Source: Felis catus (taxonomy: Eukaryota). Taken from it: 64,000 bases of DNA. Below, one piece after another: positions 10,281 to 63,964 of the stretch; within the stretch, counting starts at the first letter, position 1, and every line of letters starts with the position of its first letter. Both the position numbers and the translations under genes were made by a program. The notes beneath the pieces were generated by a model, which was not told the DNA's origin, ran no database searches, and was given only the letters and a program-made list of their open reading frames with translations. The DNA lies in the NCBI RefSeq assembly GCF_018350175.1, contig NC_058382.1, positions 42,532,001-42,596,000 on the forward strand, written 5' to 3'.

Positions 10281-10527
10281 CGCGCCCGACGCCGTCTGGG
10301 GAACGGGAGTGGGGAAGGCAGGGTAAGCCGTGGTGTACAGGGTGTGGGAGGCCGGACCCCTGGAGCGCCTGCCCTATCCCCGGCTCAGGCAGGACGCTGG
10401 AGCCGAGGACCTGCCGCAGTCCCCTCTCGGCCGTGAAGGCACTCTGACTCTGAGCCACTCTCCCGACTTGTCCATCCGCACCCCGGACGGTGCGACCACC
10501 CGCACCCTGCTACACCAGGACACTCAC

Positions 10528-33020: not shown

Positions 33021-34400
33021 TTGGTTCCCTGTTTCATGTCTTTCTCTGTCTTTCTGTCCCTGTCTCTGTGTTTGTCTCTCTCCCTTCCATGCTCTAGCTC
33101 TCCTGAATGTGCCTATGGATCAAGGTTCAGGGACAGGAATGGCCCCCACCAGGGAGGTTGCCAAAGACAATCCAGGAAGGAGCACAGAGGGAAATTTGAT
33201 CCTAGGCCTCTCCAGCTCTGAATGCTAGCTGGAACCCCAGGACAGAATCTGGCATCTTCTCTCAACATGACCCTCACCCTGTTCCTCACTGAGCCAGCAC
33301 TTCTGTTTGAATTAGTAAATATTTGCCAGTGCCTCACACTCCCCACCATCCCAACCCCCACACGCTCCTGACACTAAGACCCAGAGGAGAGTCCTGCCCT
33401 TACTTAGAGTAGGGGCTGTCCCAGAGAGATGGACACCCTGACAGACCCCTGCCCTGAGGCAAGAACAGGCTTCCAGTGGCTCTGGTTCCGTGCCTTGTGT
33501 TTTCACACATGCAACCTCACTTCAACCCTGCGAGGTGGTTCCTATTATCATCACTCTTTTACGGATGACGACACTAGACCCAGAGCCAGTACTTGGCAGA
33601 GCCAGGATTTGAACGCAGGAGATCCGGCTCTGAAATCACATCTTCCAGGGATTTGGAGTAGGATAGGAGTTGTGAATAAGAATCTCTCCTGCTCCTCTTC
33701 CTCCATTCCTCCCTCTACCTGCAGACCTCAGCTCCTCCTGCCCAGGAACCCAAGCACCTTGAGGGCAGTGCTCTGCTTCTGCCCTGTCACGTGAGGAGCC
33801 TCAAGAGAGTGGGCCTACGTGAAAAAGCCACCCCCAAAATACACCCTGGGTATACTGGGTTCACTGAGTCAGGAGAACTGGTATTTGAACCCAGAACTGC
33901 AGAGCTCCACGGCCCAGGCTCTTTCCCTTCTTTGGGATTGTCACATCACCCACACTCCTGCAGGGCACTCTCTGAGCCCTCCTCCCCTAGCCGAGGCACT
34001 AAGCACTGCGTGTTAGGGCTGGCCACCAGCCAGATGCGGCTGTCCACCGAGGTTTTTGTAATACAGCCCTTTAGAGATTGGCTGTGCCAAAGGACGGAGA
34101 CTTTATTATAACTTGCACCACTTCTGCCTATAGTCAGTTGTGAGGAGCATGGGGACAGTGGTAAGAATCGGGCCCAGGGTCCTGGGCTGGGTGGCCTGTC
34201 TGCTCCTGGCATTCCCTGCTACAGCCACCGGTAAGACACACCAGCAGGGCCTGCAGAGCTGGGAGCTTCGGGGTTGTTGGGAAGACTAGAGTAGAAGGCA
34301 AGAGTGAGGTAGGGATGGGGAGGGTTGGGCAGCCTGCTCCAAGAAGGAGCCCTCAGTTCCAAGAAATGCCGGGGGGATGTGCATCCTCTCCAGGCAGGGG

Positions 34401-34403
<3 letters not shown>

Positions 34404-34441
<38 letters not shown>
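34404..34441. repeat. (TG)n microsatellite
   Basis: About 19 TG units. Confidence 0.95.
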
Positions 34442-34442
<1 letters not shown>

Positions 34443-34483
34443 TCTCCAGAGCAGCCCTGCCAGAGAACACGATTTTTCTTAGG

Positions 34484-34714
34484 TTTTTTTTTTTTTTTAA
34501 TTTTTTTTTCAACGTTTTTATTTATTTTTGGGACAGAGAGAGACAGAGCATGAACGGGGGAGGGGCAGAGAGAGAGGGAGACACAGAATCGGAAACAGGC
34601 TCCAGGCTCTGAGCCATCAGCCCAGAGCCTGATGTGGGGCTCGAACTCACAGACCGCAAGATCATGACCTGGCTGAAGTCGGACGCCCAACCGACTGCGC
34701 CACCCAGGCGCCCC
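34484..34714 (-). mobile_element. Young Can-SINE (SINEC_Fc)
   Basis: Near-consensus felid SINE; TSD cttaggtttt. Confidence 0.92.
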
Positions 34715-34746
34715 TGTCCTTAGGTTTTAAGGGCACCCAGGATTCG

Positions 34747-35249
34747 TGTAATCACTAAGATAGACACAGAAGTCATTGTAATGAAAAGAGGTTTACTCAC
34801 AGTTCCTAGAAACAAGAGGCATGCAGGGAAGCATGGGGTCTGCTCTGTCAGGAGGGAGAGGACACGAGAGGAAAACGTGGTCAAGAGGCTTTGTTGTTTC
34901 CCAGAGAAGGAACAGGCAAGGCAGGCGAAGGTGAAGCAGGTTTCAGATTAGTTAATTTGAAGATTTTCAGTGGGCTCTGGGGCATAGGGCTGTCTCTAGT
35001 TGTGTGGCACCTGGCCCTCGGGTGATTAGGGCAGGTGGCTAGTGGTGGAAGAATCTGAGAAGCCCACAGAGGAGGTGGCTGGGAGCATGGACTCTGGATT
35101 GGTTGGTTTGTCTCGGGAAGGCACACCTCTCAGTGAATTGTTTACTATTTCTAAGAATTGGCTAGCCCTGAGACCTACAGTCCCTCCAGCGTCTGCAAGG
35201 CTCCCCTATGTCAAAACATCAAAGAAAATGAACAGATGTGATTATTGCA
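34747..35249 (-). mobile_element. Old ERVL-type solo LTR (MER77-like, family tentative)
   Basis: TG...CA bounded ~500 bp resembling a recalled ERVL LTR consensus (gggctgtc.ctagttgt.tgg.acctggccct..ggtgattagggcaggtgg, ctctggattggttggtttg). Confidence 0.6.
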
Positions 35250-38200
35250 CTTAACTGAGCAGATGAGGAATCTGAGGGTGAATGGCTAGCCCAAGCAAAG
35301 CCCCAGAGCAAGTCTGTGAGTCCGGGAGAGCCTCCCTCGGGGAACTGGTCTGGTCTGGAGAAGAGTGGTAGCCATGCTGAGGCAGGAGGAGAAAGTGGGA
35401 GGTAGTCATAGGGTCCATCCCACGGGCTTGCTGGGAAGGTAGTCAGAGCACTGTGTGCAAAGAGCTCAGAACAAGGCCCACAGAGTAGATGCTCAGAGAG
35501 CCAGTGTTGAGTGAGTCCATTTGCCACTCCATACCCTGTGGAGGCTGCAAACTCACTCCATGGCCCTCCGTCCTACTCTCAGGGCCTGAGGTCACTCAGC
35601 CTGAAGTGGACACCACCCTGGGCCGTGTGCGAGGCCAGCAAGTGGGCGTGAAGGGCACAGACCGCCTTGTGAATGCCTTCCTGGGCATCCCGTTTGCCAA
35701 GCCACCTCTGGGGCCTGGTCAATTCTCAGCCCCGCGCCCAGTGCAGTCCTGGGAAGGTGTGCGGGATGCCAGCACTGCCCCTGCAATGTGAGTAGCCACA
35801 GCGGAGGTGGGCAAGCAGGCAGGCTGTTGGGGGGGGGGGTGGGCCTAGATGCCAGGACCGGTGGGCTGAGCTGCTGGCCCTGGGTTCATCCTTCACCACA
35901 GGTGCCTGCAGGATCTGGAGAGAATGGACAACAGCAGATTTGTGTTGAACGGAAAGCACCAGCACTTCCCTATTTCAGAGGACTGTCTGATCCTCAACAT
36001 CTACAGCCCGGCTGAGGCCACCGTGGTGGCCAGGCGGACGGTGTACAGCCCAGGGGGCCCTGTTTGCCCATGCAGCTCTGCCCTGCCTAACCTCTCTCCA
36101 GCCCTGTTTCTGTACTGAGGGGGGTTCCCAAGAATGCCCTGGGTTGATGGCAGGGCAACTGGTGTCCCGGGAGCTGGGGGTCACCGCCCCATGGCTCCTC
36201 TGCAGGTCATGGTATGGATCCATGGGGGCGCTCTGGTGGCCGGCACCGCCACCTCCCAGGACGGGTCAGCCCTGGCCGCCTATGGGGATGTGGTAGTGGT
36301 CACGGTCCAGTACCGCCTGGGGCTCCTTGGCTTCCTCAGGTGAGGTGACTGGCTTGGTGGAGGGCACTGCTGGCACTGGGGAGAGGAGCTTGTGAGGGGA
36401 GTTGGGGAACTAGGGTGGAGGTCCAGAGCTTGAATGCAGATTTCTCAGGCAAGCAGAGTGTCAGGAGACCAAGGGCCCCTCCCCCATGCCATCTGGGGCA
36501 GAGAAGGAGGCTCCCCATTGCTCCACCTTGGAGAAGGGCTCGATCAAAGCCAGAATTATACAGAGAACTTGGTCCTTTGGACAGAAAGTGTTGGCTCCTG
36601 GTCTGGGACCAGGATCCCAGCAAGGGCTGGAGGCAGGGAGCAACAGCTCTGGCAGCCACTTGAGAACCAGCCTCAGCCGGCTGGGTCCCCCCGTACCATG
36701 TGCTGGGCACGTGCCTAGTAAGCATGCCTCATAACTAAGCCAGACTTGGTGAACGGGGGAGGGTGTGCCGTCCTAGTGGCTGATTCAGGACCAACCTGCA
36801 AGGGCTGAGGACAATCTATGAGGGGAGCCAGGCTGCGCTAACCTCTGCCCCCCTGCGCCCCACCCCCAGCACTGGAGACGAGCACGCCCCTGGCAACTGG
36901 GGCTTCCTAGATGTGGTGGCTGCTCTGCACTGGGTGCAGGGGAACATCTCCCCCTTGGGAGGTGACCCCAACTCTGTCACCATCTTTGGCGGTTCTGCCA
37001 GTGCTGCATCGTCTCTGCCCTGGTGAGTCACCTCAGGGGACTAGCAACAGTATCTCCTGCGGCCCCAGACCTCCCAGCTCTCCTGCCCTCCTCTGACAGC
37101 CATCTGTCCTCCACATTGCTTCCAGGTCCTGTCCCCGCTGGCTGCAGGGCTATTCCACAGAGCCATAGCCCAGAGTGGAGTCATCACCATTCCCGGCTTA
37201 CAGGCTTCGAACCCAAGGCTCCTGGCTCAAGTCTGCCTCTCTTTCATCCTCTTACCCCACATGTACCTACCACACCCCCACCCTGCACTTGCCCTGATGT
37301 CCCAGAATGGATGTCCCTGGCAGGGAGCCCCTTGTTAGCAGAGACGAAGGAAGCACACTGCCTACGGAAGCTCAGAGAAAAGCACCAGTGCCACCTGGGC
37401 ACAAAATGATTCGGGGACCTGCACCTCCAGCCTCACTTCCTGCTGACTCCCCAACCCTGCTCAGGCCTCAGCACCCACTATCATCCCCTCCCTGCCACAC
37501 TGGCCATGCTGGAATCCCTCCTCTCTGAACCCTATCTCATTTCCATATTCACTCTGGCAAAACTTTCCTGACCCCACTGGGTCTGGAAATATAGTTAACT
37601 AGTTAATGACACTGTTCTCAGATTGGCAAGGAGGACTCAGCTACCCACACAAATAATGACAGTATGATGTAATGGGGGACACACAAGGTGCCTGGGGACC
37701 ACCCAAGCTGGTGGCTTGGTGGCAGTTCTCTGGTCAGTCCCAAGTTCCCATCTCTGACATCACTGTCCCATCTTCCCTACAGATGTACCTCTTCTCTATG
37801 GGAGGCAGAGGGCTGGGGGTGAGGGGTGAGGGGTGAGGAGGGAGGGAGAGGCAAGACTTTTATCTGTCCCCAGAGCTTCGCGGACTCCATGGCCTGCAGC
37901 TCTACCTCCTCAGCTGAGATGTTGCAGTGCCTTCGGGAGAAGGCAAACAAGGAGCAGATCCTTAACATGAAGTTGGTATGCCTACCTCTTGGGGGACAGT
38001 GGCAGGCAATAGCACAGAGGGGTCCTGTCCAGCTTCTGTGAGAGCCGAGAGGCAATCAGCAGTCTGGGGTGAGGCTTGGGGCAGCCACCCCTGATGGGAA
38101 GGGGCTGAGGGCCCAACTTGGCCTGGGGGGTGTGAATGCAGAGGCACCCCTGCCCCGAGGGCAGGCCCTGTCTTCCAGGGAAGAGGCCTGCTTAGAAGGT

Positions 38201-41173
38201 CTCCCTATTCCCCCTGGGTCCTCTAACCCTGGTGACTTCTACCCCCTCTAAATAAGGCTCAGGCATGCAGCCATGCGACCCCTGGGATGCCATCTTTTAA
38301 GGCATGGGCCTGACTGGGAAGACCCCTGCCTTGCTTTCTCCTGCAGAACACTACAGCTACCTACACCATTGATGGCACCTTCTTTCCCAAGAGCCCCAGG
38401 GAGCTCTTGAGGGAGAGGCAGTTCCATTCTGTGCCCTTCCTCCTGGGTGTCAACAATCACGAGTTTGGCTGGCTTATCCCCAAGGTGAGTGTCCTCTGGC
38501 TCCTGTGTCCTTCAAGGCCCTATCCCAGCCAATCCTCTGCTACCCTGTCATTACCACAGCCTGTGAGGTGACACTCCCACTTGATAGGTGAGAAAGCAAA
38601 GCTCAGAGAGGTTTAAGGGACTTGCTCCAGGTTATGCAGATTAATTTTCCCAAAGCAAATGTTTCCTTCTGGGGACCAAGCTTTTGCACAAAGTGGCCTT
38701 CTGGGCAGTACTGATTTGCAGCATATTTGGCTTGGGGTCCGGTTTATACATCAAGCTCTATGAGACTGGTGAGTATGACTGTGTCTGAGAGACTAATTAC
38801 CTGAGACTTTCAGGTTTCAAACAACAGCAAGCCAGTGAGGAACAGCATGGCCCATGTGCCTTCCAGTCCCTTCCAGGTGTACAGGACTCCCCACACAGAG
38901 CGTTAACATCATGCTTTCCTTCTGGGCATCCTCCCTATCATTCTTCTGCCCATCTTCACAGTGATTGACTTTAATGACTGCCTTCCACAAGGGAATCATA
39001 ATAGTCCTTAATTTCTACACTTGGGCACTTTCTAGTTTTACGACTGAAGCTAAGAGGGCGGTGAACATTTTCATGTCCAGAGCTTTTGTCCTTTTATTTA
39101 TTCCTTTGGAATTGATCCCCAGGAGGGGGGCATTTGGATGTTTGCTGGATGACAGGCTCATGCAATCTTGACACTCAAGGACAAAGCTTGTAGGCCAGAC
39201 GTGTGTGCATGTGCGTGTGCGTGTGCGTGTGTGTAATGACTGATGAGTGTTAAGAGGAAACAGTACCCTGGACTCTAGCAGGCAGCCTTGGCCCCACATG
39301 GTCTACTTAGAGTCATGAGTGGAAGAGTGAGAAAGAGCCAAAGGCTGGCTCCCAAGACCTGGACAAGCCTGCCTGGAGCAGAATGCTGTGCCCGGGACTT
39401 TGTAGGCAGGATGTGTCTCAGGATTTGGGTAGCTCAGGGGGCTGTTCACCTCCTTGCTGGTGCAGAAATTCTCTTCAGTCCCCTTGTCATCCATGTGGAC
39501 CCAACTATAGTTTTTTTCAGCCAACCAGATGTTTACTAAATGTCCATGGTGTAAGCTTTGACCATGGAAAGCAATTCATACATTTTCTGGACATCTCTCC
39601 ACCTCTAATGTATTGCCACTGGCCGAGCACTTTGTGAAATTGCTACTATGCCAATTTAAACTGCTGCCAGTGACTAAAGTCTCCCAAGTTTTATTGCAAC
39701 TTTACCAGCTTTGCAGATGATAATTTTTTAAATACCAACTTTATTGAGATGTAATTTACATACCATAAAATTTACCCTTTAAAAAAGTGTGTAATTCAGT
39801 GGGTTTTAGTACATCCACGAAGTCATGCAACCATCACACTATCTTATTCCAGAACATTTGCATCCCCCTAAAATTCAGCCCATACCTGTTTGCAGTCACT
39901 TTGCATCTCTCCTCCCCAGGCCCTGGCAGCCACTAATGTACTCTCTATCAAATCTGTGAATTTGCCTATTCTATACATTTCAAATAAGTAGAATCCTACA
40001 ATTTTTTTTTTTTTTTGGTGTCTGACCTCTTTCACCTAAAATGATGTTTTCAAGTTTCATCCATCTTGTATCTCATGTTAGTATTCATTCTTTTTTATGA
40101 CTAAATAGGCCCTTGTGTGGATACAGCACGTTTTGTTTATCCATTCATCAGTTGATAGGCATTTGGGTCATTTCTACCTTTTTGGCTATTATGGATAATC
40201 CTACTATGAACATTCATGTACAAGTTTTTATGCAATTATAGGTTTTAATTTCTCTTGGTTATATACCTAGAAGTGGAATTGCTGGGTCCCATAGTAACTC
40301 TGTTTAATCGTTTGAGGAATTGCCTGTTTTCCAAAGTGTCTGTACCATTTCACATTCCCCCCCAGCAATGTAGGAGGATTTCGGTTAGTCCACATCCTCA
40401 ACAACACTCACTAGCTCTCGTTTTGATTATAGTCATCCTAGTGGGCGTGAAGTGGTATCTCGTTGTGGTTTTGATTTGCATTTCCCTAATGACTTACCAT
40501 GTTGAGTATCTTTTTATGTGATGATTGGCCATTTTTGTATCTTCTTTGGAAAAATGTCTATTAAAATCTTTTGCCCATTTTTAAATTGGATTATCTTTTT
40601 ATCATTGAGTTGTAAGAGTTTCTCATATAGTCTAGATACAAGTCCCTGTCAGATGTATGATTTGTAAATCTTGTTTCCCATGCCGTGGGTTGTCTTTTCA
40701 CTTTGTTACGGTGTTCTTAACAACACAAAAAACTTAACATTTTGATGAAGTCCAATTTTTTTTCTCTTTTGTTGCTTGTCCTTTGGGAGTAATATCTAAG
40801 AATTGATTGCTTAGTCAGATTTACCTCTACGTTTTCTCGAAGAATTTTATAGTTTTAGCTCTTATGTTTAGGTTTATGATTCATTTGAAGTTAAAACTGT
40901 GCATATGGTGTGACTGAGGGATTTTCTGTATGTGGTTATCCAGCTGTTCCCGAATCAGTTGTTGAAACACTTTTTTTTTCCTTATTGAACTGTCTTGATA
41001 CGGTTCCTGAAAATCATTGGCCATAAACTTAAGGGTTTATCTCTGGACTCTCAGTTCTATTTGGTTAATTATATGTCTATCCTTATGCCAGTACCACACC
41101 ATACTGATTAGTTTTGTACTAAGTTTTGAAATGGAGAAGTGTGAATCCTCCACCTTTGTTCTTTGTTCTTCAA

Positions 41174-41307
41174 NNNNNNNNNNNNNNNNNNNNNNNNNNN
41201 NNNNNNNNNNNNNNNNNNNNNNNNNNNNNNNNNNNNNNNNNNNNNNNNNNNNNNNNNNNNNNNNNNNNNNNNNNNNNNNNNNNNNNNNNNNNNNNNNNNN
41301 NNNNNNN
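41174..41307. other. Assembly gap
   Basis: N run. Confidence 1.
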
Positions 41308-41334
41308 AGTCCTGTGAGAGAGAGTCCACACTTC

Positions 41335-41610
41335 TCTACTATTTTCTGGTTGCATCAGGCGTTCCGTGGCATTCTCCCTCTGTCTTCACATTGTCTTCCC
41401 TCTGGGCCATCTGTCTCTGTGTCCGAATTGCCCCTTTTCACAAGGACATTAGTCATATTGAACTAGGGCCCACCCTAATGATTACCTTTGCAATCGTCTT
41501 AACTTGACTACCTCTCTAAAGGCCTCATCTTTAAATAAGGTCACATTCTGAAGTACTGGGGGTTATGCCTGTGCATATCTTTTTGTGAAGATACAAATCA
41601 ATCCCTAACA
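41335..41610. mobile_element. MaLR (MLT1-like) LTR fragment
   Basis: ctctgtcttcaca...aaggaca..agtcatattg.a.tagggcccaccctaatga...aaataaggtcacattctga.gtactgggggtta...taaca. Confidence 0.75.
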
Positions 41611-43952
41611 GTTGTTCTGGTTATTCCAGGTCCCTTACATTTCCATATGAATTCTGATCAGCTTATAAATTTCTGCAAAAAAAAAAAAAAAAAAAAAAAG
41701 TGGCTGAGATTTTGGTAGGGATCATGCTGAATCTATAGACCAGTTTAGGAAGTATTGCCATCTTAACAAGATGAAGTCTTCCAACCCATGAACATAGGAT
41801 GTCTTTCCATTTACTTAGGTCCTCTTTAGTTTCTCTCAATTATTCTTTAGTTTCTCTAGTTTTTAATGTACAAGGTTCATACTCTGTTAATGAAGTTGAT
41901 TCCTAAGGGTTTTATTTTTCGATGCTCTTGTAAATTAAATTGTTTTCTTCACATCACCTTCAGACTGTTCATTGCCGCTGTATAGAAACACAACTGATTT
42001 TTGTCTATTGTTCTTATAAACTATCATTTTAAAGAACTTTGCTCCTTTAGCTTTTTTAGTTTAGTCCTTTAATGTTTAGTGCACATTAACATCCCCCTGT
42101 GGGTATGCACTCTTTGTGTTTGCTCATCCATGAGTTTTCTGTTCCTGTTTTCACAATGATTAACCAAGAGCCCTACAGCCATGAAACTAACTTTAATAGC
42201 GAACACTTTACAGTGCTTACTGTATGTCAGGGTCTTCATAGTTACTACTCCGATCTTCATAACAATCCTATGAGGCAGGTTATTGCCATTCCTCTTTCAC
42301 AGATTAAGAAACTGAGACACCAAGAGTTTAAGCAATGGGCCCAGGTCACGGATCTAGCAAGTGGCAGAGCTGAGATTTGAACCCAAAGACTGTGCCCTTA
42401 AAAACCTAACATATAAAGCCAACATTTCACTTTAAAAACAACATTTTAACTTTCCCTGTAGGCCTTGCTAAGCACCCGGGGGTCTTGATCTTATTCTGTG
42501 AAAATGTTGAATACATTTTGGGACTGCTATGACCCATGTGCTTGTTGTATTTGGCGCTGTTTCCTCCCTCCTCGATTTGAGGTTTATATTTTCGGGTCTA
42601 TGGACTTGTGGGCTTCAACACACTTGGCTCTGTTCACAGGACTGTGAACACTCGCCTGCTCATAGCTGGGAGTAGGGGGTGGGCAGTAATCAGGCTATGC
42701 TGAGAAGACCCTGATGTCCCCACAGGGCTGAGGTTTCCTGGGTAAGATGGGGAAGATGAGCCTGGAGGATATGCTGGCCATATTAAGACCCCACTTGACC
42801 ATTCTGGTAAGTCAACAAGGGAGGAAGAGGTAGTCCAGTGGGTATCCTATCCAGAATAGTAGGGCACCCTCTTCCTCCTACCCTTCAACCCCCACAGCTA
42901 CCCACACACCACCAAACCCCTTGGTCCAACTGCTGACTTTTAGTTCCACCTAGAAATCCCCTTGGACATGAGTCAGTTGGATCTGGAGTCCAATCCAAGC
43001 CCTGGCTACCTGTCCTCAGTGAGCCTAATCCTTTTGAGCCCATTTCCTCCCCTGTAAATGGGGATATACCTCCCATATGAGGAAACTGGATGCTGTATTT
43101 GAAAACTCTACTAGGGAGCTGGTATTGAAAGATGCTCAATCTATGCATATTTCCCTCCCTTCTTTGCCCCCCCCCCCCCCGAGCCCTCTCCATTCATACA
43201 ACATCATCACTATTCTCTGGAGCTCTGTGGAGCCCCCATGATTTGTTCTTTTACCAACTTCCTGGTTAACTTCAACCAGGCAACTGCTCAAGATCAGAAC
43301 CCTTAGCTGGGAACTTCACATAGGCTGCCAAACAACACTGCCAGGCAGGAACTGACTTTCTGGGAGGCTCAGCAACCTATCTGAGATCACACAGCAAAGC
43401 AGCAATCGCAGAGCTAGGATTTGACTCCAGGTCTGGCCTTACCCTGCCTAGACATTATCTAGAACCCCCAAGGGAGGCAAGGGCTGGGCCCTGGCACACG
43501 AGCCCTGGAATATGAAGAGGCTGTGCTGGAGGGTGTGAGGCTTCTTTGGAGGGTCTGCTGGGCTGTGGGACCTGAGCATGCCTAAGCCTGGCTTCCTGCC
43601 CCAGGATATACCCCCTGAGGTGATGCCCACCATCATAGATGAATACCTAGGCGGCAGTTTCGACGCAGAAGCCAGACGTAATGCCATCCAGGAATTTTGG
43701 GCTGACCTTATCGTTATCTTTCCCACCTTGAATTTCTCAAGAAACCTCTGAGGTGAGCCTATCCCTGTTCACCTGCCCTACCCTTCCCATTTTGTCCCAG
43801 GAGTTGGGTTATCATAGGCATCATGGCCCCACACCCTGCTGCTACCCCCACACCTCGCTTTCTCTCTGAGATACAGTGTTAACAGTAATGAGAGGTGACT
43901 CTGGCAGGTCACCCTGCAGGGGAGAAAACCAAGGCTCAGAGATGTGCAGTAG

Positions 43953-44190
43953 AGATTTGAAGGTGATCTGGCTGTGACATCTGTCACCTCATTGATCGCC
44001 AGGATTGATTCAGCTGATCTGACTGGCTAGGTGGGTGTCCCCTTCCTCCCTCATCGCTGCATTGTGTCCTTCCCAAAGCTGCACTATCAGTCAAGGATGA
44101 CCTTCCCCAATAGAGGAAGACCATTCATTCTTCAGTCAAGGGAATATGAGTAGCTGCGCTCTCCTGCTAGAACCTCCAAACAAGCTCTCA
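43953..44190 (+). pseudogene. RN7SK: 3'-truncated 7SK snRNA retrocopy
   Basis: gatctggctgtgacatctgtcacc...gattcagctgatctgactggctagg...gagtagctgcgctc.cctgctagaacctccaaacaagctctca matches 7SK nt ~1-240. Flanked by an imperfect direct repeat agaga(t/g)g(t/c)gcagt. Confidence 0.93.
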
Positions 44191-46824
44191 GAGAGGCGCA
44201 GTGACTTGTCTAAGGTCACCCAGCAGGGCCCATCCCCAATTCTCAGGCATTCATTGATTTTTCCCACATTCAGCACTTCTCCTGGGAGAAAAGTCTTGCT
44301 TCCTCCAAGCCTAGTGGCTAGTCCCTGACACAGCCCTAGAATAGCACCAAGTTCCTATCTTTGTGACCTTAGGCAAGATACCTAACCCCTCTGTGCCTCA
44401 GTTTCCTCATTTGCAAAATGGCAACAATAATAGACTCTAACCCATAGGTTGTTGTGAGGATGAAATTAATGATTGCACATAAAGCACATGGAATGGTGCA
44501 CAATGGCCAGCAAGTGCTCAGTAAATGCTTGCTGATAATTATGGTGTCATCATCAGTATTGTTACTGGTGTTGGTGTTATTGGTGTTATTATGAGCCAGT
44601 CCTGTTAGAGGTAGGACCTGGTCAGGCTGAGGGTACCTAACTCTGATGCCACCCTCTCTCCGCAGATTCTGGAGCTCCCGTCTTTTTCTATGAGTTCCAG
44701 CATCGACCCAGTTCTTTTGCGAAGATCAAACCAGACTGGGTGAGGGCTGACCATGGGGCTGAGATTGCCTTCATATTCGGGGGTCCTTTCCTCATGGATG
44801 AGAACTCCCTGCTGGGTGAGGACAGATAGACATCGATCCCTGGGCTGTAGGCTCCACAGGCTAGGGTGGGGCTTGCAGGCACAGAGGTCTCCAGTCAGCA
44901 CAGGGAACCCTTGGGTTCTCTCCAAGACCCACCTGACCTTGATCTAGGTCTGTTCCTCCCCTAGCCTTTCCAGAAGCTACACAGGAGGAGAAGCAGCTGA
45001 GCCTCACCATGATGGCCCAGTGGACCCAATTTGCCCGGACAGGGTGAGTGAGCAAGTGGGAACACCTGGCTTTGGGCCTCTACTAAGCAGATCTTCCCCC
45101 AGGGGATAAAGCAGGCGGCCCTGGACTTCATTCATTTTTCCTACCCAGGGACCCCATTCAAGCAGTTGGAGCAATACCTGGAGATCAGCCCGACACCACG
45201 AGTTGGCCAGAAGCTAAGAGAAGCCCAAATGCAGTTCTGGGCAGAGATACTTTCTGCCAACTTCCGGCAGTGGCAGCAGAAGCAGAAGGGCAGGAAGGCC
45301 CAGGAGGAGCTCTGAGGCAGGGCATGGGCCTTCTTGGCTGGAGGCTAACCCTAGGGGTGGCAGAGTCCCAGCAAAACAGCTTCTTTCTCCCCCTGCTAAG
45401 AAACTTTAACTTAAACCAAACTGATGTATGGACATGTCCCTTAAGGAATCAGCCCCTCCATGACTGGCATTGTGCTGTTGAAATGTCACCTGCTTCCCAC
45501 TTTAAGGGCCTCTGTACAAACTCCTCCCTCTTCTTTCCCCCTTGCTTCCTAGCAAGTTCCAGCTCTTTCCTTAAGCTCCCTCCTCCATGAAGCTTTCCCT
45601 GCCTTCTCTAGGCCCAAGTGTATGTCCGTTACAGCATAGCCCACTCCAGGCTAGCACTGTCTGTATCTGTGTCTCTTTCCCTTCTCTGAGAGTAGAAATC
45701 AACCTGACCCCACTCTGTATCTTCCCCACAAGGATCAGGAGGACTTGGAGTCAGGGATGTTTGATGAGCGAGTAAAAGACTGAGTGTGTGAATGGTGGCT
45801 GCTGGATGTGAACCCAGGCTCTTCAGCCACCAAAGCTATGCTCAGGCCTACACAGATGTGCCCCTTGGCCAGAAGGGTGAACGGACTCCAAAGGCAGTCC
45901 TGGGGTAGGAGGAAGTCCTGAGACCTCAAAGAATTCTCTAGAATGGATCTCAGCCCCCAAAGGCCTCTAACTCAGGCTAAAGGAGATCCTTTTCTCTGTG
46001 CTGCCCAGACTTGTTCCCCTGCTCCCCTGCACAAGACACAGCAGAATCCAGCAGGGCCAGAGCCCTGACTCTTAGCCTATGAGATGTCAGCTTCCCAGTC
46101 CTAGTGCTTCAATGCTTTATGGCCTGCTAGGCTCCTCCCTGCCCTCCCAGCTTGGGGAGACCAACTTCTGGGGGAACTGAGCACAGCTCCACAGCACCTA
46201 CTAGGACACAGGAGAAGAGATTGGGGAGGGTGTCTGACTAGTGCATCAGTCAGACTATTGTCACAGAGAAAAGAAGAGGCCTACCCACTCAGGCCACAAC
46301 AAGTGAAGAGGAGCCAGAGGCTTTTGAGGCAAACATTTCTTCTTTTTGAGAATCAATGCACCACTCCCTTGGGGCATCTGGATTTTAATACATGCCACAA
46401 GGACTTTCTTTCCCTGCCCCCACTATCTCATCCTACAGGTCTAATCCCACATATACCCTTCCTCCATCAGACTCAGTTCCTGGCTGCTGAGGGTTACATG
46501 AAAGCACTTGCAATTGGGACCAGTGCTGTTCAGGGAAGTCCTTTTTGGGCAAGGAGGAGACACATAAAGCCAGAGGGACACTAAGTCATACCACTCCCCT
46601 GCTCAAGAGCTCCCTGTGATTCTCTGTCACCCTTAGGGCAAGTCCAAGTTCTTCACACGGCATTGAAAGCCTTCTGTTCTCATCCCCCTTCTCCACCAGG
46701 GAAGTATGTCCCCACAAGCCAGTAGAGAGCCTGACAAGTACATAAGCCCCAATCACAGTGTGCCACTAGGGACACAGAGGGCTGTAGGAGCACAGCATAG
46801 TCCAGCCCTGACATGTGCCCTCTC

Positions 46825-52966: not shown

Positions 52967-55900
52967 ATGAGTTGGATTCTATACCTGAGCCTCACCCTTT
53001 GCCTGATGGTGCAGACAGCCCTGGGTAAGCCCCAACTCCATCCTGAGGGTGTCAGGCAAGAGGGACATGAGAGACACAGGGGCAGGCCCTCAGCTCAACC
53101 TCTCCTGGTACAGCGGGGCAAGGGCATTTTAACAAGGTCTGGGCGGATGGGGGGGTTGTTTCGGGCACTGATCCTCCCATCAGCTAAGAGTCTAGACATT
53201 TATGTTTATATATTAAAATATATTTTATAATTTACATAATATTATGTATTTATAATTTGTTAATTTATATTTGTATTCCTTATAAAATTAATATTATATA
53301 AAATTACTACTATATTAGTATATACATTAGTGTGTATGTATATGTTACCACCAACCAGACTGAGATCTAGAACATTTCCAGCACCCCACATGCTCCTTCC
53401 CAATCAATACCCTCAAAGTAGCCACTATTCTGACCTCTATCACAAATTAGTTTTGCCTATATAAGTGCATTTAAATTTTTTTTAAATGTTTTATTTATCT
53501 TTAAGACAGAGACAGAGTGCGAGCAGCGGAAGGGCAGAGAGAGAGGGAGACCCAGAATCTGAAGCAGGCTCCAGGCTCTGAACTGTCAGCACAGAGCCCA
53601 ATCTGGGGCTTAAACTTATGAACCACAAGATCATGACCTGAGCCAAAGTCATACGCCTAACCGACTGAGCTACCCAGGCGCCCTGTTTAAGTGCATTTAA
53701 ATTTTTTTATTTGCGAGAAACTTTGCTAAATCACTTTTAGCATTTTGGCACATTTTCTTTTAGTCTTTTTATTTCATGTTTGTACACAGCTACAGTATTA
53801 GCATGTATACAACTTTATACACTGCTTTTTTTCACTTAGAATCTTATCACAAGCAGCTTATAACTTTAGTTTATAGTTAAAATTTTTTTGCCTGGTCCTG
53901 TGACATAAATGATGCTTCTAGTACTCACTATGGTATATTTAACTATGGTTCATAAAGGTCTTCGTTTTAATGCCTTTCTGACTCTTTTCTGAAGGGAGGG
54001 ACCTGAAAGTGAAATTACTGAGTCAAAATAAACTTTTAAAAACTTTTAATTTTTTTTTCAACGTTTTTATTTATTTTTGGGACAGAGAGAGACAGAGCAT
54101 GAACGGGGGAGGGGCAGAGAGAGAGGGAGACACAAAATCGGAAACAGGCTCCAGGCTCTGAGCCATCAGCCCAGAGCCTGACGCGGGGCTCGAACTCCCG
54201 GACCGCGATATCGTGACCTGGCTGAAGTCGGACGCTTAACCGACTGCGCCACCCAGGCGCCCCTAAAAACTTTTAAAAAGGTTCGGGGGTACCTGGGTGG
54301 CTCAGTTGGTTAAGCGGGTGATTCTTAATTTCGGTTGAGGTCAGGCTCTCACCATTCGTGAGCTGGAGCCCTACATCTGGCTCTGCACTGACAGCATGGA
54401 ACCTGCTTGGGATTCTGTTTCTCCCTCTCTCTGCCCCTCCCCTGCCCTCTCTCATGTGCTCTCTAAATAAATAAATAAATAAATAAATAAGTAAAAACTT
54501 AAAAAAAAAGAAATCACTGAGTCAAAGCATGTGAACGTGGCTCTTATACATTATGCCAAATTATTTCTCCAAGGCATTGTATTAATTTATCCTGCACCAA
54601 CCTGTACCAACAGTATATGTGAATATCCTTTTCACATATACTGTTTCTTTGCCAGAATTGGGGGCCATCATTTTTAATTTCTTAGGTGGAAGTTGTCTCT
54701 CCTGGTTTTAATTAGCATTTAATGCTTATTAAGAAGGTGGAATGGGGAGCCTGGGTGGCTCAGTCGGTTGGGCGTCCGACTTCAGCTCAGGTCATGATCT
54801 CACAGTTCGTAGGTTCGAGCCCTGCATAGGGCTCTGTGCTGACAGCTCAGAGCCTGGAGCCTGCTTCAGATTCTGTGTCTCTCTCTTTGCCCATTACCAC
54901 TTGCACTCTGTCTCTCACCCTCTCAAAAATAAACATTAAAAAAAAAAGAAGGTGGAATGTTTTCCTAAGTGCTCACATATTGTCTCCAGGTAGCAAGGCT
55001 GGAGTGGGGACCACTCCATGGCAGTTCTTGTTCAGGGGTGTAAAGCACTCTGCCACATGCTTAGGTGTCCCCAGAGACTGGGATGAGGACAACAGAACAT
55101 CACCGCTTAGAGTAGAACTCTGAGAAGAACCTCACTCTGTGTGACCTTGAGCAAGTTCTATAACCCCTTTGAGCTTCATTTTCCACATTTGTATTGTGCA
55201 ATAATAACATTTACTCTCTACATTTTTTAGGAAGATGAGGTGAGATAATCCATGTAAAGTGTTTGGCACAGTGCTAGGCTATAATAAAGGATCAATAAAT
55301 TATAGTTGTGGGCTAGTCAGGCTTCAGGGCAAATCCAAGTAATATGACAGACCTCTGCCTCTTTGCTGTGTCCTCTGAGACCTCAGGCTGGTTGCTGCCC
55401 CTGTCTGGGCCCTTAGTCCTCCCCTAGCTCTCCCCAGGGCCAATGAGGACTTGATGTGAGAGAACCATGTGAAAGGCTGTGTAAACTGCAAAGAACTGCA
55501 CACATAGAGGAGGTTTGAGATGGCCCTTTGCCTGCACTGGCCTGCCTACATGCTTGCAGGCCACCATTGTAGTCACTCCTTGTGCACAGATATTGCTTTT
55601 GTCAGACGTGCAGAGACTCGGGAACATGGACAGAGTGGTACTTTGGGTCACCTGCAGCTGGAGGTGCGAGGGTGTGCTCTACCACACCAATTCCAAATGC
55701 GGTGCCCAAAATCAAATGCATCAAAATCTCACGGAGGTATCTGTAAATCTACTTTCCCAGTGCAACCCTGAGATTCTCATTCAGAGGGCAGGCCTAGGAA
55801 TCTGTATTTCAGCAATGATTTCCTCAGATGATTCTGATACACAGCCAAGTTCAATAATACTCGGACCAGATTTGCTTTCTGTCATTTGCAGAGTGAGCTC

Positions 55901-57273
55901 CAGGGGACCAGGGTACAGAACGATTCAGTTTTGATAAGAAAGGAGGAAGAGAAATGACAGGGGTGCTTCAGGAAAGGACAATAGATGTGAGGCAGAGCAA
56001 TGCTTGGCAATAGCAATAGGGCAAGATGAGAGCTGAGAAGAGGAAGAAATGCCCATAGGCAGCCATTAAATTCAAGTCGCTCTAGTTTGTATATAGTCCA
56101 AGAGCTGGCTAAGGTGTGGATATAGGTCTAATGTATCTGTGTGCCCATGTGTAATATATGAATATATGCCACATATGGATACAGTGTAACCTTTATATAA
56201 CTGTACTTACATGCATGCATATGTATGTATGCATATGTGTGTGCACTTAACTCTTGTATTTCTACATGCTTTGTTGTAAATAAGCTGTGTTCACATATAC
56301 CTATGTATGTATAAATTTGTATGTACATGTGAGTATTACTGTGAGTATACATACGAATGAGAATGTCAATAATGTGTGTGATTTCTTCCCAGAAGTATGC
56401 CAGGTAAATGTCAGCAACAAGAAAGAGGTACTGGAATACCAATATGAGACAAGCAAAAATCAAAATAAATGACATGATTATTGACATTAAATGATACATT
56501 AAATGACAGAAAAATAATTCATATAATAGACATGAACCTTTATGCACCTACCAACATAGCATTGAAACCTTAAATAATGAGAGAGAAAAATACTGAGAGA
56601 AACACAGAAAAGGTAGGCAAAATACACAATTGTGAAAAGCTTCAAGCTGCAACTGGTGCCATGGCAGACAGGCCAGAGTCCTATCAGTGGCCAGAGTGAC
56701 CCTTCTCCTCTCTTCCTAGGTGCTCAGCACACCAAGGAACCTCTAGTGATTACCAAATATGGGACCCTCCAAGGAAAACAGATGCACATCGGGAAGACAC
56801 CCATCAATGTCTTCCTAGGAGTGCCCTTCTCCAGACCACCTGTGGGTGTCCGCAGGTTTGCTGCCCCAGAGCCTCCAGAGCCCTGGGAAGGAATCAAAAA
56901 CGCCACCACCTATGCCCCTGCGTAAGAGCCAAATGACTGTTGGCTGGGAGGTGGGCAGACTCTAAGGAGGGGGGGTGGATCTATGCCGGCCTCTGGGCCA
57001 GAGTTTGAACAACTCACTAAAGAGTGCACCGTATGACTGTACGTAGCCTGGGGTCCATTCCGGCCCTCAGTTTCCAAACCTATATAATGAAGTCGTTGGC
57101 CCAGATGATGTTTACAGGACTGTTAATGCTGTTTGTTCTTGGCTTTCTTATGGGAAAGCTGCAGACAAGGAGGAGGTGCTCACTGATGTGCCTCCAGGAT
57201 CTTCTGGGAACCTAAGTTTTCCTAAAAGTATGTGAGGAGGAGTTCTCTCTGTCTCTGTCTGTCTGTGTCTCCA

Positions 57274-57331
<58 letters not shown>

Positions 57332-60300
57332 CATACCCAGTGAACCCTGAGCTCTTCCCTCTCACTTGGGGCTTGAGCCCCAGAACAAGCCCACATGACA
57401 CCATCAGCCCTTCCCTGCAGAAGGAGCTCCAAGATAGGGAGTCACAGGCTCAGTTTCAGTTTTAATGTCCCAGAATTTTTTCTTTTTCAGACAGAGAGAG
57501 AGAGAAAGAGAGAGAGAGCACACATACGAGTGCTTGAGCAAGGGAGGGGCAGAGGGAGAGAGAGAATCTTAAGCAGGCTCCACATGCAGCACAGAGCCCC
57601 ATGCAGGGCTCAATCCCATGACCCTGAGATCATGACCTGAACCCAACCGAGTCACCCAAGTACCCCAAAGTCCCAGAATCTTAATGCAACCTCTAACAGG
57701 GCTCAAATCCTGAGTCACATGAGCATGTTGAGATAATGACTGCCCTTTGAAGCACTAGGCTTGGCAATTTACCCAGAACAAGTGTATTTATTATTTATTC
57801 AGATCATTGAGTAACCCACTGACCAGAATATTCTGTGGCAATCATTAACAATCGGTTGGATACAGCACTGGGTTTAGAAAAATGTCTACTGTGAGAACCT
57901 GGGTGTCAGTTGATATCTAAAAACTATAACCACCACCCAGGGTGTCTAACTGTTGAGAACAGGGCATCCACTGTTAGAACATGAATGGCTATTAGTAGAA
58001 CACTGGGGTGTTAGTTGTTAGAACACTGACCACCAGTGAGAGAAACCAAGACATCTGAACCTTCTGTGATTGTTATGTGGAATCCCATGGATCAGGTGAC
58101 AGAACAGGGGATGACCATTATTAGAGCCCCGAGGATCAGGGGTTTAGAGATTGGGGTGCCCATTGCATAGAAGTCCAGGTGTCAGTTGTTGGAACGTTGG
58201 CCATGAGCTGTCAGACAATAGCTGTTTGGAACACAGAGTGACAGGTAGAAGAATTTGTGGATGGCTTACAACAGACTGTGGGATGGTAGTTAAGGAGACA
58301 AGAAGACTAGTGGCCTGTTTGGATAATGACTAGCTTCAGGCCAGAGCAGCAAGGGAACAAGTGGAGAAAGGAGTAGAATAGACAGGCTTTCCTGCAGCCA
58401 GTCAGATGGGCCCAGCCCCAACTATTGGCAATAGCCACACTCCAGGCTGGGACAGCAGGGAGAAAGGATGAGGTGGCCCAACAGCCCAAGCTCCACAAGT
58501 ACACCAAATGTTCACATGGTACAAGGCACTGGGCTGAGTGCCAGGACTCAGACAAATCCACATCCATCCCTGCCCCTAGGAGTGCATGGTTGCTTGGGGA
58601 GAATAACAACCAAACCAATCGAAACAACTCTAACCCAGCACTATAATCAGCGAGGATAGAACTTTGGGAAGCACAGACAGGAAGTGCCCAGCAGAGGGGG
58701 CGCCACTTTAGCTGAGCCTTAAACATAAGCAGGAGTTTGCCAGGCAGAGAAAACATTAGGCAGAAGGGACATAAGCAAAAGGGCTTAGAGATGGGAGACA
58801 AGGAAGGGTCCGTGGGCATCTAGAGCAAAGAGTGCCAGGAAGACTAGATGGAGAGGGCCTGCGTCAGTATGGGTGAATCTGGACCTTATCCTGAGCGCAG
58901 GGGGGCCCAGGAAGGTTTTAAGGAGGGAAGTGAAATAGGTTTTTGTTTTCTGTCAATCCCTCCGGTCAGGGCGTGGAGGATGAGTTGGAAGCGATGTCAA
59001 AGAGGCTGGGGCAGTGTCCTGGCCAGTGTAGGTAATGGCCTTTACAAGGCAGCATCTCTGGGATGGAGAAGGCCTATTTAAGAGCTGTTTGGGAGACAGA
59101 AAAGAGCCTGAAGGACGGGGGCATGAAATCCCAGGACACCCAGGTTTCTGGCTTGACAGCACCAAAAGGGTCTCCAACAGAAGCATGGAACCTCTCCCCA
59201 GGCAGATTCCTGGGACCGGGGGCAAGACAGAGGGGTGGATCTTGCCCTGGGTCTGACCTGGCGCTGCACTCACCCCGGACCCTAATGCTAGTGGAGGCTA
59301 TTCGGACACAGATACACACACGCACGCGCGCGCATCCTAAATTTTGCTTTTGGTTCTATTTCCTCAATTGCGGAACCTGGGTTTGCAACCATTCTCCCGT
59401 CTTTGGCCACCACATTGGGCCCAAACTCACATCGTGACCGCAGGTGCCTTCAGGAGTCCTGGGGACAGATCACCTCCATGTACTTCAACACGCGGAAACA
59501 GTACAAGTGGCTGCGCTTCAGTGAGGACTGTCTGTACCTGAATGTATACGCTCCAGTGCGCGCGCGTGGGGACGCTCCGTTGCCGGTGAGTATTCATCCT
59601 CTTCCACGCACCATCCCACTCAGGCACCCCACCGCCCAGCTCAGGCCTCCGCTTTCCATGTCCAGGTGATGGTCTGGTTCCCAGGAGGTGCCTTCCTCGT
59701 GGGCTCCGCTTCCACGTACGATGGCACGCAGCTGGCCTCTCGCGAGAAAGTGGTGCTCGTGCTTCTGCAGCACAGGCTCGGCATCCTGGGTTTCCTGAGG
59801 TGGGCGGGGCCGGGGGCCGGACGGGGAATCAGGGGCCCGGCTTCCCAGGGACATGTGCGGAAGGATAGAGGAGGGGGTGTGGGGGCGTGGTTACAAGAGG
59901 TGCGTGCAGGGGCGGGGCCTAATTTCTTCTGGAGAGGGCGGTCACTCCCAAGTGCCGCCAGAGGGGGACCTAACACTAGGGACAGAGGTGTGGTCGCAAG
60001 ACCTGGTGCCTGAGGGACCAAGCAGGGTGAGGTGGGGCCAGGCAGAACCAGGCTGGAGCCCTGAGTAACCAGACGGTCGGGGGGCTCCGGACCCTGATTA
60101 TGAGCCCCGCGCGTCCAGCACGGGCGACAGCCAGGCCCGCGGGAACTGGGCGCTGCTGGACCAGGTGGCTGCTTTGCGCTGGGTACAAGAGAACATCGCA
60201 GCCTTCGGCGGAGACCCACGCTGCGTGACCCTGTTTGGCCAGTCTTCGGGGGCCATGTGTATTTCGGGACTGGTGAGTGCAGCGCCAGGTCAGACCCAGC

Positions 60301-63300: not shown

Positions 63301-63964
63301 GCCTGGTGTAGCTCTGGCTGGAATCCCTCCTGATGTTTGGGCCTAACTCACACCTGGGTCCTTATATTGTGGGCAGATCATGAAGATCTCACTAAACCAG
63401 TTCACAATGAGAAAAGGAATCATCACCAAGCTGCTCTGGAGAACCAGTACCCTGTTGGTGAGGAGCCATGCTGTTAGGGGTGCTCAGTTTGGTTGGACAA
63501 AGCTAACTCCCCTTTTGGTGGGGCTTGGAGTTTGGTATGGGATCAGATGGCTGCTGGTGAGCAGGTTCCCCCCACCCCCCACCCCCCCCACCCCCCCGCC
63601 ACCGCACTGGCCTCAGGATCATGGCAGGCAGTTCTCATGCAGTCTAAACACAGGGGTAAGAATCAGCAAAGATCTTCCCAGAAGTTTCCCTCTCTCCCCC
63701 ACTCTCCCAGACCAAAAACTCCTGAGGATGCTGAGTGTAAGTCACTAGTGTGTGCATTTCTGCTCATCTGGCACCCCAGGCCTCAGGGTGGGTATGAATT
63801 CCCCACCCAGAATATCACCAAAGAGCAGTTACCACTGGTGATAGAGGAGTACCTGGGTGACATTGATGACCGTGACTGGAAAATGTTAAGAAACCGTTTA
63901 ATGGACCTAGCTGGGGATGCGATCTTTGTGTACTCCACACTACAGGCTGCCCACCACCACAGAG
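52967..63964 (+). CDS. CES4A: Carboxylesterase 4A, exons 1-11; continues beyond the right edge
   Basis: Exons 52967-53024, 56720-56921, 59444-59585, 59666-59799, 60119-60272, 61765-61869, 61940-62044, 62190-62228, 62705-62845, 63377-63457, 63811-63964, open frame throughout. [30 protein letters not shown] and NNLEF match recalled CES4A. Confidence 0.96.
53475..53683 (-). mobile_element. Can-SINE
   Basis: TSD taagtgcatttaaattt. Confidence 0.9.
54050..54263 (-). mobile_element. Young Can-SINE (SINEC_Fc)
   Basis: CpG-rich, near-consensus; TSD taaaaacttttaa. Confidence 0.93.
54285..54509 (+). mobile_element. Can-SINE
   Basis: Head gggggtacctgggtggc; (TAAA)n tail. Confidence 0.9.
54744..54947 (+). 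mobile_element. Can-SINE
   Basis: TSD aagaaggtggaat. Confidence 0.9.
57244..57331. repeat. Compound (CT/CTGT)n-(CA)n microsatellite
   Basis: Directly visible. Confidence 0.9.
57477..57666 (-). mobile_element. Can-SINE
   Basis: TSD gtcccagaat. Confidence 0.85.
57890..58250. repeat. Decayed ~22-bp minisatellite
   Basis: AGAACA-like hexamers recur at 57956, 57976, 57997, 58020, 58041, 58101, 58123, 58146, 58169, 58191. Confidence 0.6.
59247..60299. repeat. Perfect 28-bp inverted repeat (arms 59247-59274 and 60272-60299)
   Basis: ctgggtctgacctggcgctgcactcacc is the exact reverse complement of ggtgagtgcagcgccaggtcagacccag. Confidence 0.95.

What the first reader, a model, noticed from the sequence alone, without database searches (positions are those of the whole stretch)
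34149..45315. CES3 is a unitary pseudogene between intact CES2 and CES4A
Seen, four lesions: (1) exon 5 is 153 nt, whereas the paralogous CES4A exon is 154 nt, so a 1-nt deletion just after the catalytic Ser (36994-36996) shifts the frame to TAG at 37166-37168; (2) GGC TGA GGT at 42729-42731 where recalled orthologues read GWG; (3) CTC TGA G at 43749-43751, probably a CGA>TGA CpG transition; (4) the last exon lacks ~29 nt. The nucleophile elbow also reads GGSAS instead of GxSxG. All 13 exons and GT-AG sites are still recognisable, so the loss is relatively recent. No lesion lies next to an N gap. Inference: lineage-specific loss of a lipid/xenobiotic esterase in a hypercarnivore, relevant to felid drug metabolism. 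I cannot verify whether this loss is already published.
Basis: partly seen in the sequence, partly recalled or inferred. Interest (0 to 1): 0.7.

Follow-up and report, generated by a model that had tools for sequence, protein, structure and literature searches.

The report
Domestic cat lineage lost CES3 esterase
A liver-and-gut esterase gene, CES3, is broken in four places in this domestic-cat-type genome but intact in lions, cheetahs, pumas, lynxes and leopard cats, so it is a recent loss on the cat's own branch of a gene that several other mammals have also discarded.

Summary
All four lesions are real in the sequence and confirmed against felid orthologues: a 1-nt deletion in exon 5 (stop at 37166-37168, 251 aa), W355* (42729), R429* (43749), a 29-nt deletion in exon 13, plus G231S in the nucleophile elbow. 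The window matches Felis catus: its intact CES2 ends in the cat RefSeq isoform letter for letter, and a UniProt cat fragment carries the same 10-aa gap and missing Arg. The hypercarnivore reading fails: 11 of 15 other felid taxa seen have a stop-free 570-aa CES3, including the leopard cat. The cat copy shows relaxed selection: 10 of its 11 private missense changes hit sites invariant in outgroups, against 11 of 42 in intact felids (p=1.5e-4). Rough age is 1-6 My, long before domestication. CES3 loss is already published for sirenians, cetaceans, hippos, phocids and camels; nine searches found no paper on the cat. The lesions were not seen in reads, and no whole genome was searched. Verdict: a genuine, probably unreported, lineage-specific unitary pseudogene of a gene that mammals often lose. 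Modest interest; Bengal hybrids may offer a natural rescue.

The parts
34149..34230 (+). CES3 exon 1 (ATG, signal-peptide region), 82 nt
   Evidence: no residue private to the window among 11 felid sequences
35583..35787 (+). CES3 exon 2, 205 nt; private changes V59A, R74Q, A81V
35902..36040 (+). CES3 exon 3, 139 nt; private changes G138V, P142T
36206..36339 (+). CES3 exon 4, 134 nt; oxyanion-hole HGG motif at 36221; A156T
   Evidence: motif role from PMC5818367
36870..37022 (+). CES3 exon 5, 153 nt (one base short); catalytic Ser229 codon 36994-36996; F216L
   Evidence: PF00135 hit E 1e-18
37000..37002 (+). G231S in the nucleophile elbow (GGSAG to GGSAS), probably a CpG transition
   Evidence: Gly in 291 of 292 proteins with the motif; CpG origin inferred
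37003..37005 (+). Lesion 1: 1-nt deletion, frameshift
37126..37230 (+). CES3 exon 6, 105 nt; contains the premature TAG (37166-37168) reached after lesion 1
37874..37975 (+). CES3 exon 7, 102 nt
38347..38484 (+). CES3 exon 8, 138 nt; holds the codon of the catalytic Glu346 (out of frame after lesion 1)
   Evidence: role of the residue by homology
42726..42806 (+). CES3 exon 9, 81 nt; D359G, Q363K
42729..42731 (+). Lesion 2: W355* (TGA)
   Evidence: Trp in 10 of 10 intact felids
43605..43752 (+). CES3 exon 10, 148 nt
43749..43751 (+). Lesion 3: R429* (TGA, probably from CGA)
   Evidence: Arg in 10 of 10 intact felids; residue absent from the cat UniProt fragment P0003
44666..44815 (+). CES3 exon 11, 150 nt; catalytic His459 codon (44752-44754); S476N
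   Evidence: 100% match to the cat fragment P0003
44965..45043 (+). CES3 exon 12, 79 nt
45149..45315 (+). CES3 exon 13, 167 nt to the ancestral stop; C-terminal QEEL now out of frame
   Evidence: the shifted frame runs to 45590
45155..45157 (+). Lesion 4: 29-nt deletion, frameshift
   Evidence: same 10-aa gap in the cat fragment P0003
19770..30705 (+). Flanking CES2, intact, 12 exons, 556 aa (control gene)
   Evidence: the F. catus RefSeq isoform X2 (453 aa) is an exact suffix
52967..63964 (+). Flanking CES4A exons 1-10, open frame; rest of the gene lies beyond the window

Best explanation
This is the single-copy CES3 gene of the domestic-cat lineage, inactivated after the split from the leopard-cat lineage and decaying neutrally since. 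SHOWN: two frameshifts, two stops and a changed elbow. The as-is transcript would stop in exon 6 of 13 after 251 aa, keeping Ser229 but losing Glu346 and His459. Retaining intron 5 restores the frame but meets two stops, and an internal start at M362 stops after 68 codons, so none of the splice or start routes examined gives an enzyme. Sister felids keep the gene. INFERRED: the message is a target of nonsense-mediated decay; the first hit came 1-6 My ago (central estimates 4-6), so most or all Felis species should share at least one lesion; it was tolerated because CES3 is a low-abundance, low-efficiency esterase overlapped by CES1 and CES2, which is also why several other mammal lineages lost it.
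For: Lesions. Orthology: tree and synteny. Species: cat CES2 isoform is an exact suffix; cat fragment P0003 is identical over its 199 aa and shows lesions 3 and 4. Intact relatives: 11 of 15 non-Felis felid taxa seen have a 570-aa CES3, and snow leopard is complete from exon 2. Relaxed selection: 11 private missense plus 2 nonsense changes against 0-6 in each of 10 intact felids; 10 of 11 at sites invariant in 7 outgroups against 11 of 42 (Fisher p=1.5e-4), 7 of 11 against 1 of 42 with 17 outgroups (p=1.6e-5); end branch 0.019 against at most 0.0099 for the other 9 felids. Control: CES2 has 4 private changes against 0-4, and no rate excess over the leopard cat with four outgroups (5:9, 8:6, 7:7, 7:7). 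Dispensability: losses in sirenians, cetaceans, hippos, phocids and Old World camels; lower expression and efficiency than CES1.
Against: No lesion was seen in reads; lesions 1 and 2 rest on this assembly, with only indirect support for lesion 2. Relative-rate tests on CES3 are significant with 1 of 4 outgroups (p=0.019, 0.064, 0.064, 0.36), and the CES3-versus-CES2 contrast with 1 of 4 (p=0.04, 0.14, 0.27, 1.0). No other Felis species was available, so 'Felis stem' is a prediction. The date uses protein counts and an assumed neutral rate (0.8-1.5% per branch; only the 1.5% comes from a paper), not dN/dS. 5 of the 20 members of the felid CES3 cluster were never listed. The reason for the loss is argued by analogy, not measured.
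Confidence: 0.82

Rival explanations
1. Diet-driven loss shared by hypercarnivores or all felids, like UGT1A6.
For: [quoted passage not shown] Other carnivoran CES3 models look damaged or partial: African wild dog low-quality model, phocid deletion, short tiger and Geoffroy's cat models.
Against: 11 of 15 other felid taxa, both hyenas and the meerkat have 570-aa CES3, and their variable sites avoid conserved positions (11 of 42, binomial p=1e-5). Herbivores (sirenians, camels, hippos) lost it too.
Confidence: 0.03
2. The lesions are assembly errors or a null allele segregating in cats, with working alleles still present.
For: The window comes from a gapped draft (4 N runs); a 1-nt deletion is a typical assembly error; no reads were laid.
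Against: Four independent lesions plus 11 missense changes at conserved sites are not what base errors give, while neighbouring CES2 is error-free. A separate cat annotation shows lesions 3 and 4 (whether it is the same animal is unknown). 10 runs not flagged as possible source, in 6 studies, hold 0.96-0.99 of the sampled words of 42600-45900; about 0.97 is expected if all three 3' lesions were absent, and 4 of the 10 reach 0.99. That last point is weak.
Confidence: 0.05
3. A duplicated pseudogene, with a working CES3 elsewhere in the cat genome.
For: No whole genome was searched; 5 of 20 cluster members were not listed.
Against: The copy sits in the orthologous slot between CES2 and CES4A with all 12 introns. 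Two CES3-exon searches and two cluster listings showed only a 199-aa F. catus fragment, identical to this locus.
Confidence: 0.03
4. Adaptive loss on the Felis branch (for example changed lipid or water economy in arid-adapted small cats, echoing camels).
For: Old World camels, also arid-adapted, lost CES3. The arid origin of Felis species is recalled, not from a call.
Against: No signature of selection can be read from these data; the aquatic lineages that lost the gene share no such ecology.
Confidence: 0.07

Closest known systems
Intact felid CES3 (e.g. Prionailurus bengalensis XP_043455375.1, Acinonyx jubatus XP_053066132.1), carboxylesterase family PF00135
   Same: Colinear over 570 positions; 14-27 residue differences from 10 felid orthologues; 97% identity to cheetah.
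   Different: Two stops, two frameshifts, G231S and 10 further private missense changes; no full-length product possible from the canonical splicing.
Published CES3 losses in sirenians, cetaceans, hippos, phocids (10.1101/2023.09.01.555811; PMC11219930) and Old World camels (PMC12127551)
   Same: Same gene, same kind of event: lineage-specific inactivation by stops or deletions.
   Different: Independent lesions; a terrestrial carnivore; close sister species keep the gene, so the event is young and narrowly bounded.
Cat UGT1A6 pseudogene (cited in PMC6386725)
   Same: A xenobiotic-metabolising enzyme gene lost in the cat.
   Different: UGT1A6 loss is recalled as Felidae-wide with a clear drug phenotype; CES3 loss is limited to the cat's own branch and has no known phenotype.
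UniProt A0ABI7W5T0 (Felis catus, 199 aa)
   Same: Identical to window exons 9-13 from M362, with the same gap and missing Arg.
   Different: It is presented as a protein fragment; it can be produced only by skipping the stop and the frameshift (inferred), and lacks the catalytic Ser and Glu.

Membership tests
Mammalian CES3 (type-B carboxylesterase, PF00135) | Sequence belongs to the CES3 clade, not CES1 or CES2 | tested here: met
   Felid CES3 clade 100/99, CES3 clade 100/100 in a 22-row tree; PF00135 hits on exons 5 and 11. CES4A and CES5A were not in the tree.
Mammalian CES3 (type-B carboxylesterase, PF00135) | Position between CES2 and CES4A, multi-exon structure | tested here: met
Mammalian CES3 (type-B carboxylesterase, PF00135) | Ser-Glu-His triad in one polypeptide | tested here: not met
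   Codons present, but translation stops at residue 251, before Glu346 and His459
Mammalian CES3 (type-B carboxylesterase, PF00135) | GXSXG nucleophile motif (PMC5818367) | tested here: not met
   GGSAS; Gly in 291 of 292 proteins held with the motif
Mammalian CES3 (type-B carboxylesterase, PF00135) | Oxyanion-hole HGG motif | tested here: met
   HGGA at residue 148
Mammalian CES3 (type-B carboxylesterase, PF00135) | Esterase activity | not testable with these tools
   needs an assay
Unitary pseudogene | Disabling lesions in the reading frame | tested here: met
   four lesions
Unitary pseudogene | Orthologue functional in relatives | tested here: met
   570-aa stop-free models in 11 of 15 other felid taxa; purifying pattern. 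Function is inferred from open frames, not assayed.
Unitary pseudogene | Release from purifying selection | tested here: met
   site-constraint test p=1.5e-4 and 1.6e-5; rate tests weaker; protein level only
Unitary pseudogene | No functional copy elsewhere in the genome | tested here: inconclusive
   no full-length cat protein among listed hits; no genome available
Unitary pseudogene | Lesions fixed in the species, not assembly errors | tested here: inconclusive
   cat fragment P0003 shows lesions 3 and 4; word shares 0.96-0.99; no reads examined

The most novel reading that the evidence does not exclude
The CES3 null is fixed across Felis and contributes to the domestic cat's slow clearance of some ester drugs or pesticides, a deficit that big cats, lynxes and leopard cats do not share. 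Because the leopard-cat allele is intact and Bengal cats carry leopard-cat segments, some pet cats would carry a working CES3, giving a natural null-versus-rescued comparison for an enzyme whose role in vivo is poorly known. Short or aberrant models in tiger and Geoffroy's cat may mark further independent losses within Felidae.
Probability: 0.13. Interest if true: 0.65.

Novelty: new member of a known kind. Interest (0 to 1): 0.33.

Why it matters
It adds a drug-metabolising gene to the short list lost in domestic cats and shows that this loss, unlike the usual diet story, separates the cat from its closest wild relatives. That matters when veterinary pharmacology extrapolates between domestic and wild felids, and it corrects a database fragment that is presented as a protein. 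Four nested lesions could serve as markers within Felis. The practical effect is probably small, since CES1 and CES2 are more abundant and more active, and CES3 has been lost several times in mammals.

Tried and rejected
Whole-genome search for a second copy: no genome held. Search with the frameshifted exon 5 for a cat N-terminal fragment that would confirm lesion 1: none among the best 120 of 369 hits listed. Rescue by retention of intron 5: frame restored but two stops. Rescue by internal start at M362: stop after 68 codons. Weak-looking exon 6 donor as a fifth lesion: rejected, because an unnamed Panthera-like protein reads the same residues through that junction (P0168). Tiger (210 aa) and Geoffroy's cat (472/478 aa) as proven losses: not accepted, since jaguarundi also has short isoforms X1 and X2 beside a full X3, 5 of 20 cluster members were unseen, and each has few private changes in the aligned parts (tiger 1; Geoffroy's cat 2 outside its aberrant segments). 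Small-share runs X20-X23 were not used as evidence. Relative-rate and CES2-contrast tests were mostly not significant. Literature on a cat CES3 loss: nothing in searches; no CES3 in the main text or 9 supplement files of PMC6386725, nor in 3 supplement files of PMC5865188. Holmes 2010 on mammalian CES3 is not held. Supplementary Note 6 of PMC11219930 was not among the readable files (one file too large; files 6, 13, 14 not searched), the TOGA panel of PMC12127551 is a figure, and bioRxiv supplements are closed; any of these may list the cat. Earlier findings of this scan: none.
Full report
Observation. Reading 33500-45499 and fixing the borders by script gives 13 exons, all with GT-AG borders, from ATG 34149 to TGA 45315. 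Spliced as they stand they encode 251 aa and stop at TAG 37166-37168 in exon 6. Exon 5 is 153 nt; the matching CES4A exon is 154 nt. Against felid orthologues there are four lesions: one base missing at about 37003-37005, W355* at 42729, R429* at 43749, and 29 bases missing at 45155-45157, which puts the C-terminal QEEL out of frame. The elbow reads GGSAS; 291 of the 292 carboxylesterase proteins held with this motif (of 354 proteins held) have Gly there. The nearest N is at least 1,422 bases from any lesion.

Whose genome. An exon 11 search (90 hits of 93 candidates) gave one 100% match, a 199-aa Felis catus UniProt entry. It is identical to the window from M362 to the end and lacks both the Arg at lesion 3 and the ten residues at lesion 4. 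The window's CES2 (19770-30705, 12 exons, 556 aa, no lesion) ends in the F. catus RefSeq isoform X2 letter for letter over 453 aa. The window is therefore domestic cat or a form not distinguishable from it at these proteins. CES4A exons 1-10 are open; its remaining exons lie beyond the window, so 'intact CES4A' is only partly checked. A 22-row tree puts the read-through inside the felid CES3 clade (100/99), apart from CES1 and CES2.

Who else has the gene. The felid CES3 cluster has 20 members, of which 15 were listed. Over all clusters 15 non-Felis felid taxa were seen. Eleven have a 570-aa model without stops: lion, leopard, jaguar, clouded leopard, Iberian lynx, bobcat, Canada lynx, cheetah, puma, jaguarundi and leopard cat. 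Snow leopard is complete from exon 2 with a different first segment. Tiger (210 aa), Geoffroy's cat (472 and 478 aa) and Iriomote cat (579 aa, exon 6 skipped) have partial or aberrant models. Both hyenas and the meerkat have 570-aa forms. The leopard cat split from the domestic cat about 6 million years ago (10.1101/2022.12.12.520105, passages). The loss is thus confined to the cat's own branch, and the hypercarnivore reading fails. No other Felis species was available.

Relaxed selection. The window has 11 private missense and 2 nonsense changes; each of the 10 intact felid sequences has 0-6 private changes (close pairs such as lion-jaguar share changes, so the leopard cat with 4 is the fair comparison). 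Ten of the 11 fall at sites invariant in 7 outgroups (344 of 570 sites), against 11 of 42 sites that vary among intact felids (Fisher p=1.5e-4); with 17 outgroups it is 7 of 11 against 1 of 42 (p=1.6e-5). The cat changes are if anything more concentrated at conserved sites than random placement predicts (p=0.06 and 0.02); five of the 13 look like CpG transitions (codon contexts; ancestral codons inferred), which may explain this. The end branch is 0.019 against at most 0.0099 for the other nine felids in the tree. CES2 shows no such excess: 4 private changes against 0-4. Against this, simple rate tests are weak: significant with 1 of 4 outgroups, and the CES3-versus-CES2 contrast with 1 of 4. 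Two nonsense changes against 0.54 expected from 11 missense is compatible with neutrality (P=0.10).

Date. Thirteen amino-acid-changing substitutions on about 1,189 sites give 0.011 per site. With a neutral branch length of 1.5% (half the ~3% divergence quoted) the gene has been neutral for about 3.8 of 6 My (range 1.1-6); with my alternative assumptions of 0.8-1.0% it has been neutral for the whole branch (lower bounds 2.0-2.9 My). This is rough, but every value is far older than domestication. It predicts that wildcats and probably the other Felis species share at least one lesion.

Are the lesions real and fixed? They were not examined in reads. Indirect support: the separate cat annotation shows lesions 3 and 4 (whether it derives from the same animal is unknown). 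Of 24 runs listed for 42600-45900, 14 DNA-like runs of one organism hold 0.96-0.99 of 339 sampled words; 4 are flagged as a possible source, leaving 10 runs in 6 studies, of which 4 reach 0.99. About 0.97 is expected if all three 3' lesions were absent, so this is weak support. Lesion 1 rests on this assembly alone; a search with the shifted exon 5 showed no cat protein among the best 120 of 369 hits. Any one of lesions 1-3 removes the catalytic His, so the null does not depend on lesion 1.

Mechanism. Shown: no full-length product from canonical splicing; intron 5 retention meets two stops, and an internal start at M362 stops after 68 codons. Inferred: the stop in exon 6 of 13 makes the message a target of nonsense-mediated decay, and a 251-aa piece lacking Glu346 and His459 cannot hydrolyse esters (triad and GXSXG motif as described in PMC5818367, passages). 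Why it was tolerated is inferred from the literature: CES3 is expressed in liver and intestine at lower levels than CES1 and CES2 and is described as much less efficient than CES1 for many compounds. CES2 is intact here; cat CES1 was not examined.

Known cases and novelty. CES3 loss is reported for sirenians, cetaceans, hippos and phocids (10.1101/2023.09.01.555811, two passages; PMC11219930, one passage and a supplement search) and for Old World camels (PMC12127551, passages and a supplement search). Nine searches found no paper on the cat. PMC6386725 (passages and supplements) and PMC5865188 (supplements only) do not mention CES3. PMC4691742 was seen as passages. The library lacks most subscription papers; Holmes 2010 was not held; the supplementary note on CES3 in PMC11219930 and the 423-species TOGA figure in PMC12127551 could not be seen and may record the cat. 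The finding is a new instance of a known kind, probably implicit in automated annotations.

Verdict. Interest 0.33. The boldest reading left open is a cat-specific esterase deficit that segregates in Bengal hybrids (probability about 0.13, interest 0.65 if true). Cats' sensitivity to pyrethroids, which prompts that reading, is recalled and comes from no call.

Noticed in passing
P0097 (tiger), P0091 and P0004 (Geoffroy's cat): The only CES3 models listed for tiger (210 aa, starting at the same Met as the cat fragment) and Geoffroy's cat (no exons 1-3, intron 5 retained, exon 6 in another frame) are abnormal. These may be further independent losses or annotation quirks.
   Followed up: partly
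P0086 (African wild dog): Low-quality, degenerate 380-aa CES3 model, and no other canid CES3 among the listed hits, although canid CES2 is present. This suggests an older loss in Canidae.
   Followed up: no
window 42600-45900, run X15: A run guessed to be RNA holds 0.94 of the words, introns included, while two runs of the same study hold 0.00 and 0.04; three gut or mammal metatranscriptomes hold 0.61-0.77. This could be tissue-specific unspliced transcription of the pseudogene, or DNA.
   Followed up: no
window 662-3809, 7728-10373, about 17500-18480 (all minus strand): Exons recognised in translation as CDH16, RRAD and CIAO2B (names recalled from the peptides), matching the recalled human gene order upstream of CES2.
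   Followed up: no
window CES3 residues 366, 408, 416: The cat copy shares L366, I408 and I416 with the puma lineage rather than with leopard cat, lynx and Panthera. This hints at gene-tree discordance at the locus, which would lengthen the cat branch and blur the date.
   Followed up: no
window 34405-34715, about 39700-42100, 41174-41307: A TG microsatellite and a carnivore SINE in intron 1; AT-rich LINE-like sequence with an N gap in intron 8 (repeat labels recalled from the sequence, not from a repeat search).
   Followed up: no
window 27280-27538: In CES2 a single 259-nt exon covers what is two exons (154 + 105 nt) in CES4A and ancestrally in CES3, so CES2 lacks that intron.
   Followed up: no
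P0010 (sea otter CES3): Several unusual changes at otherwise conserved motifs are visible by eye, which may indicate relaxation in another aquatic carnivoran.
   Followed up: no
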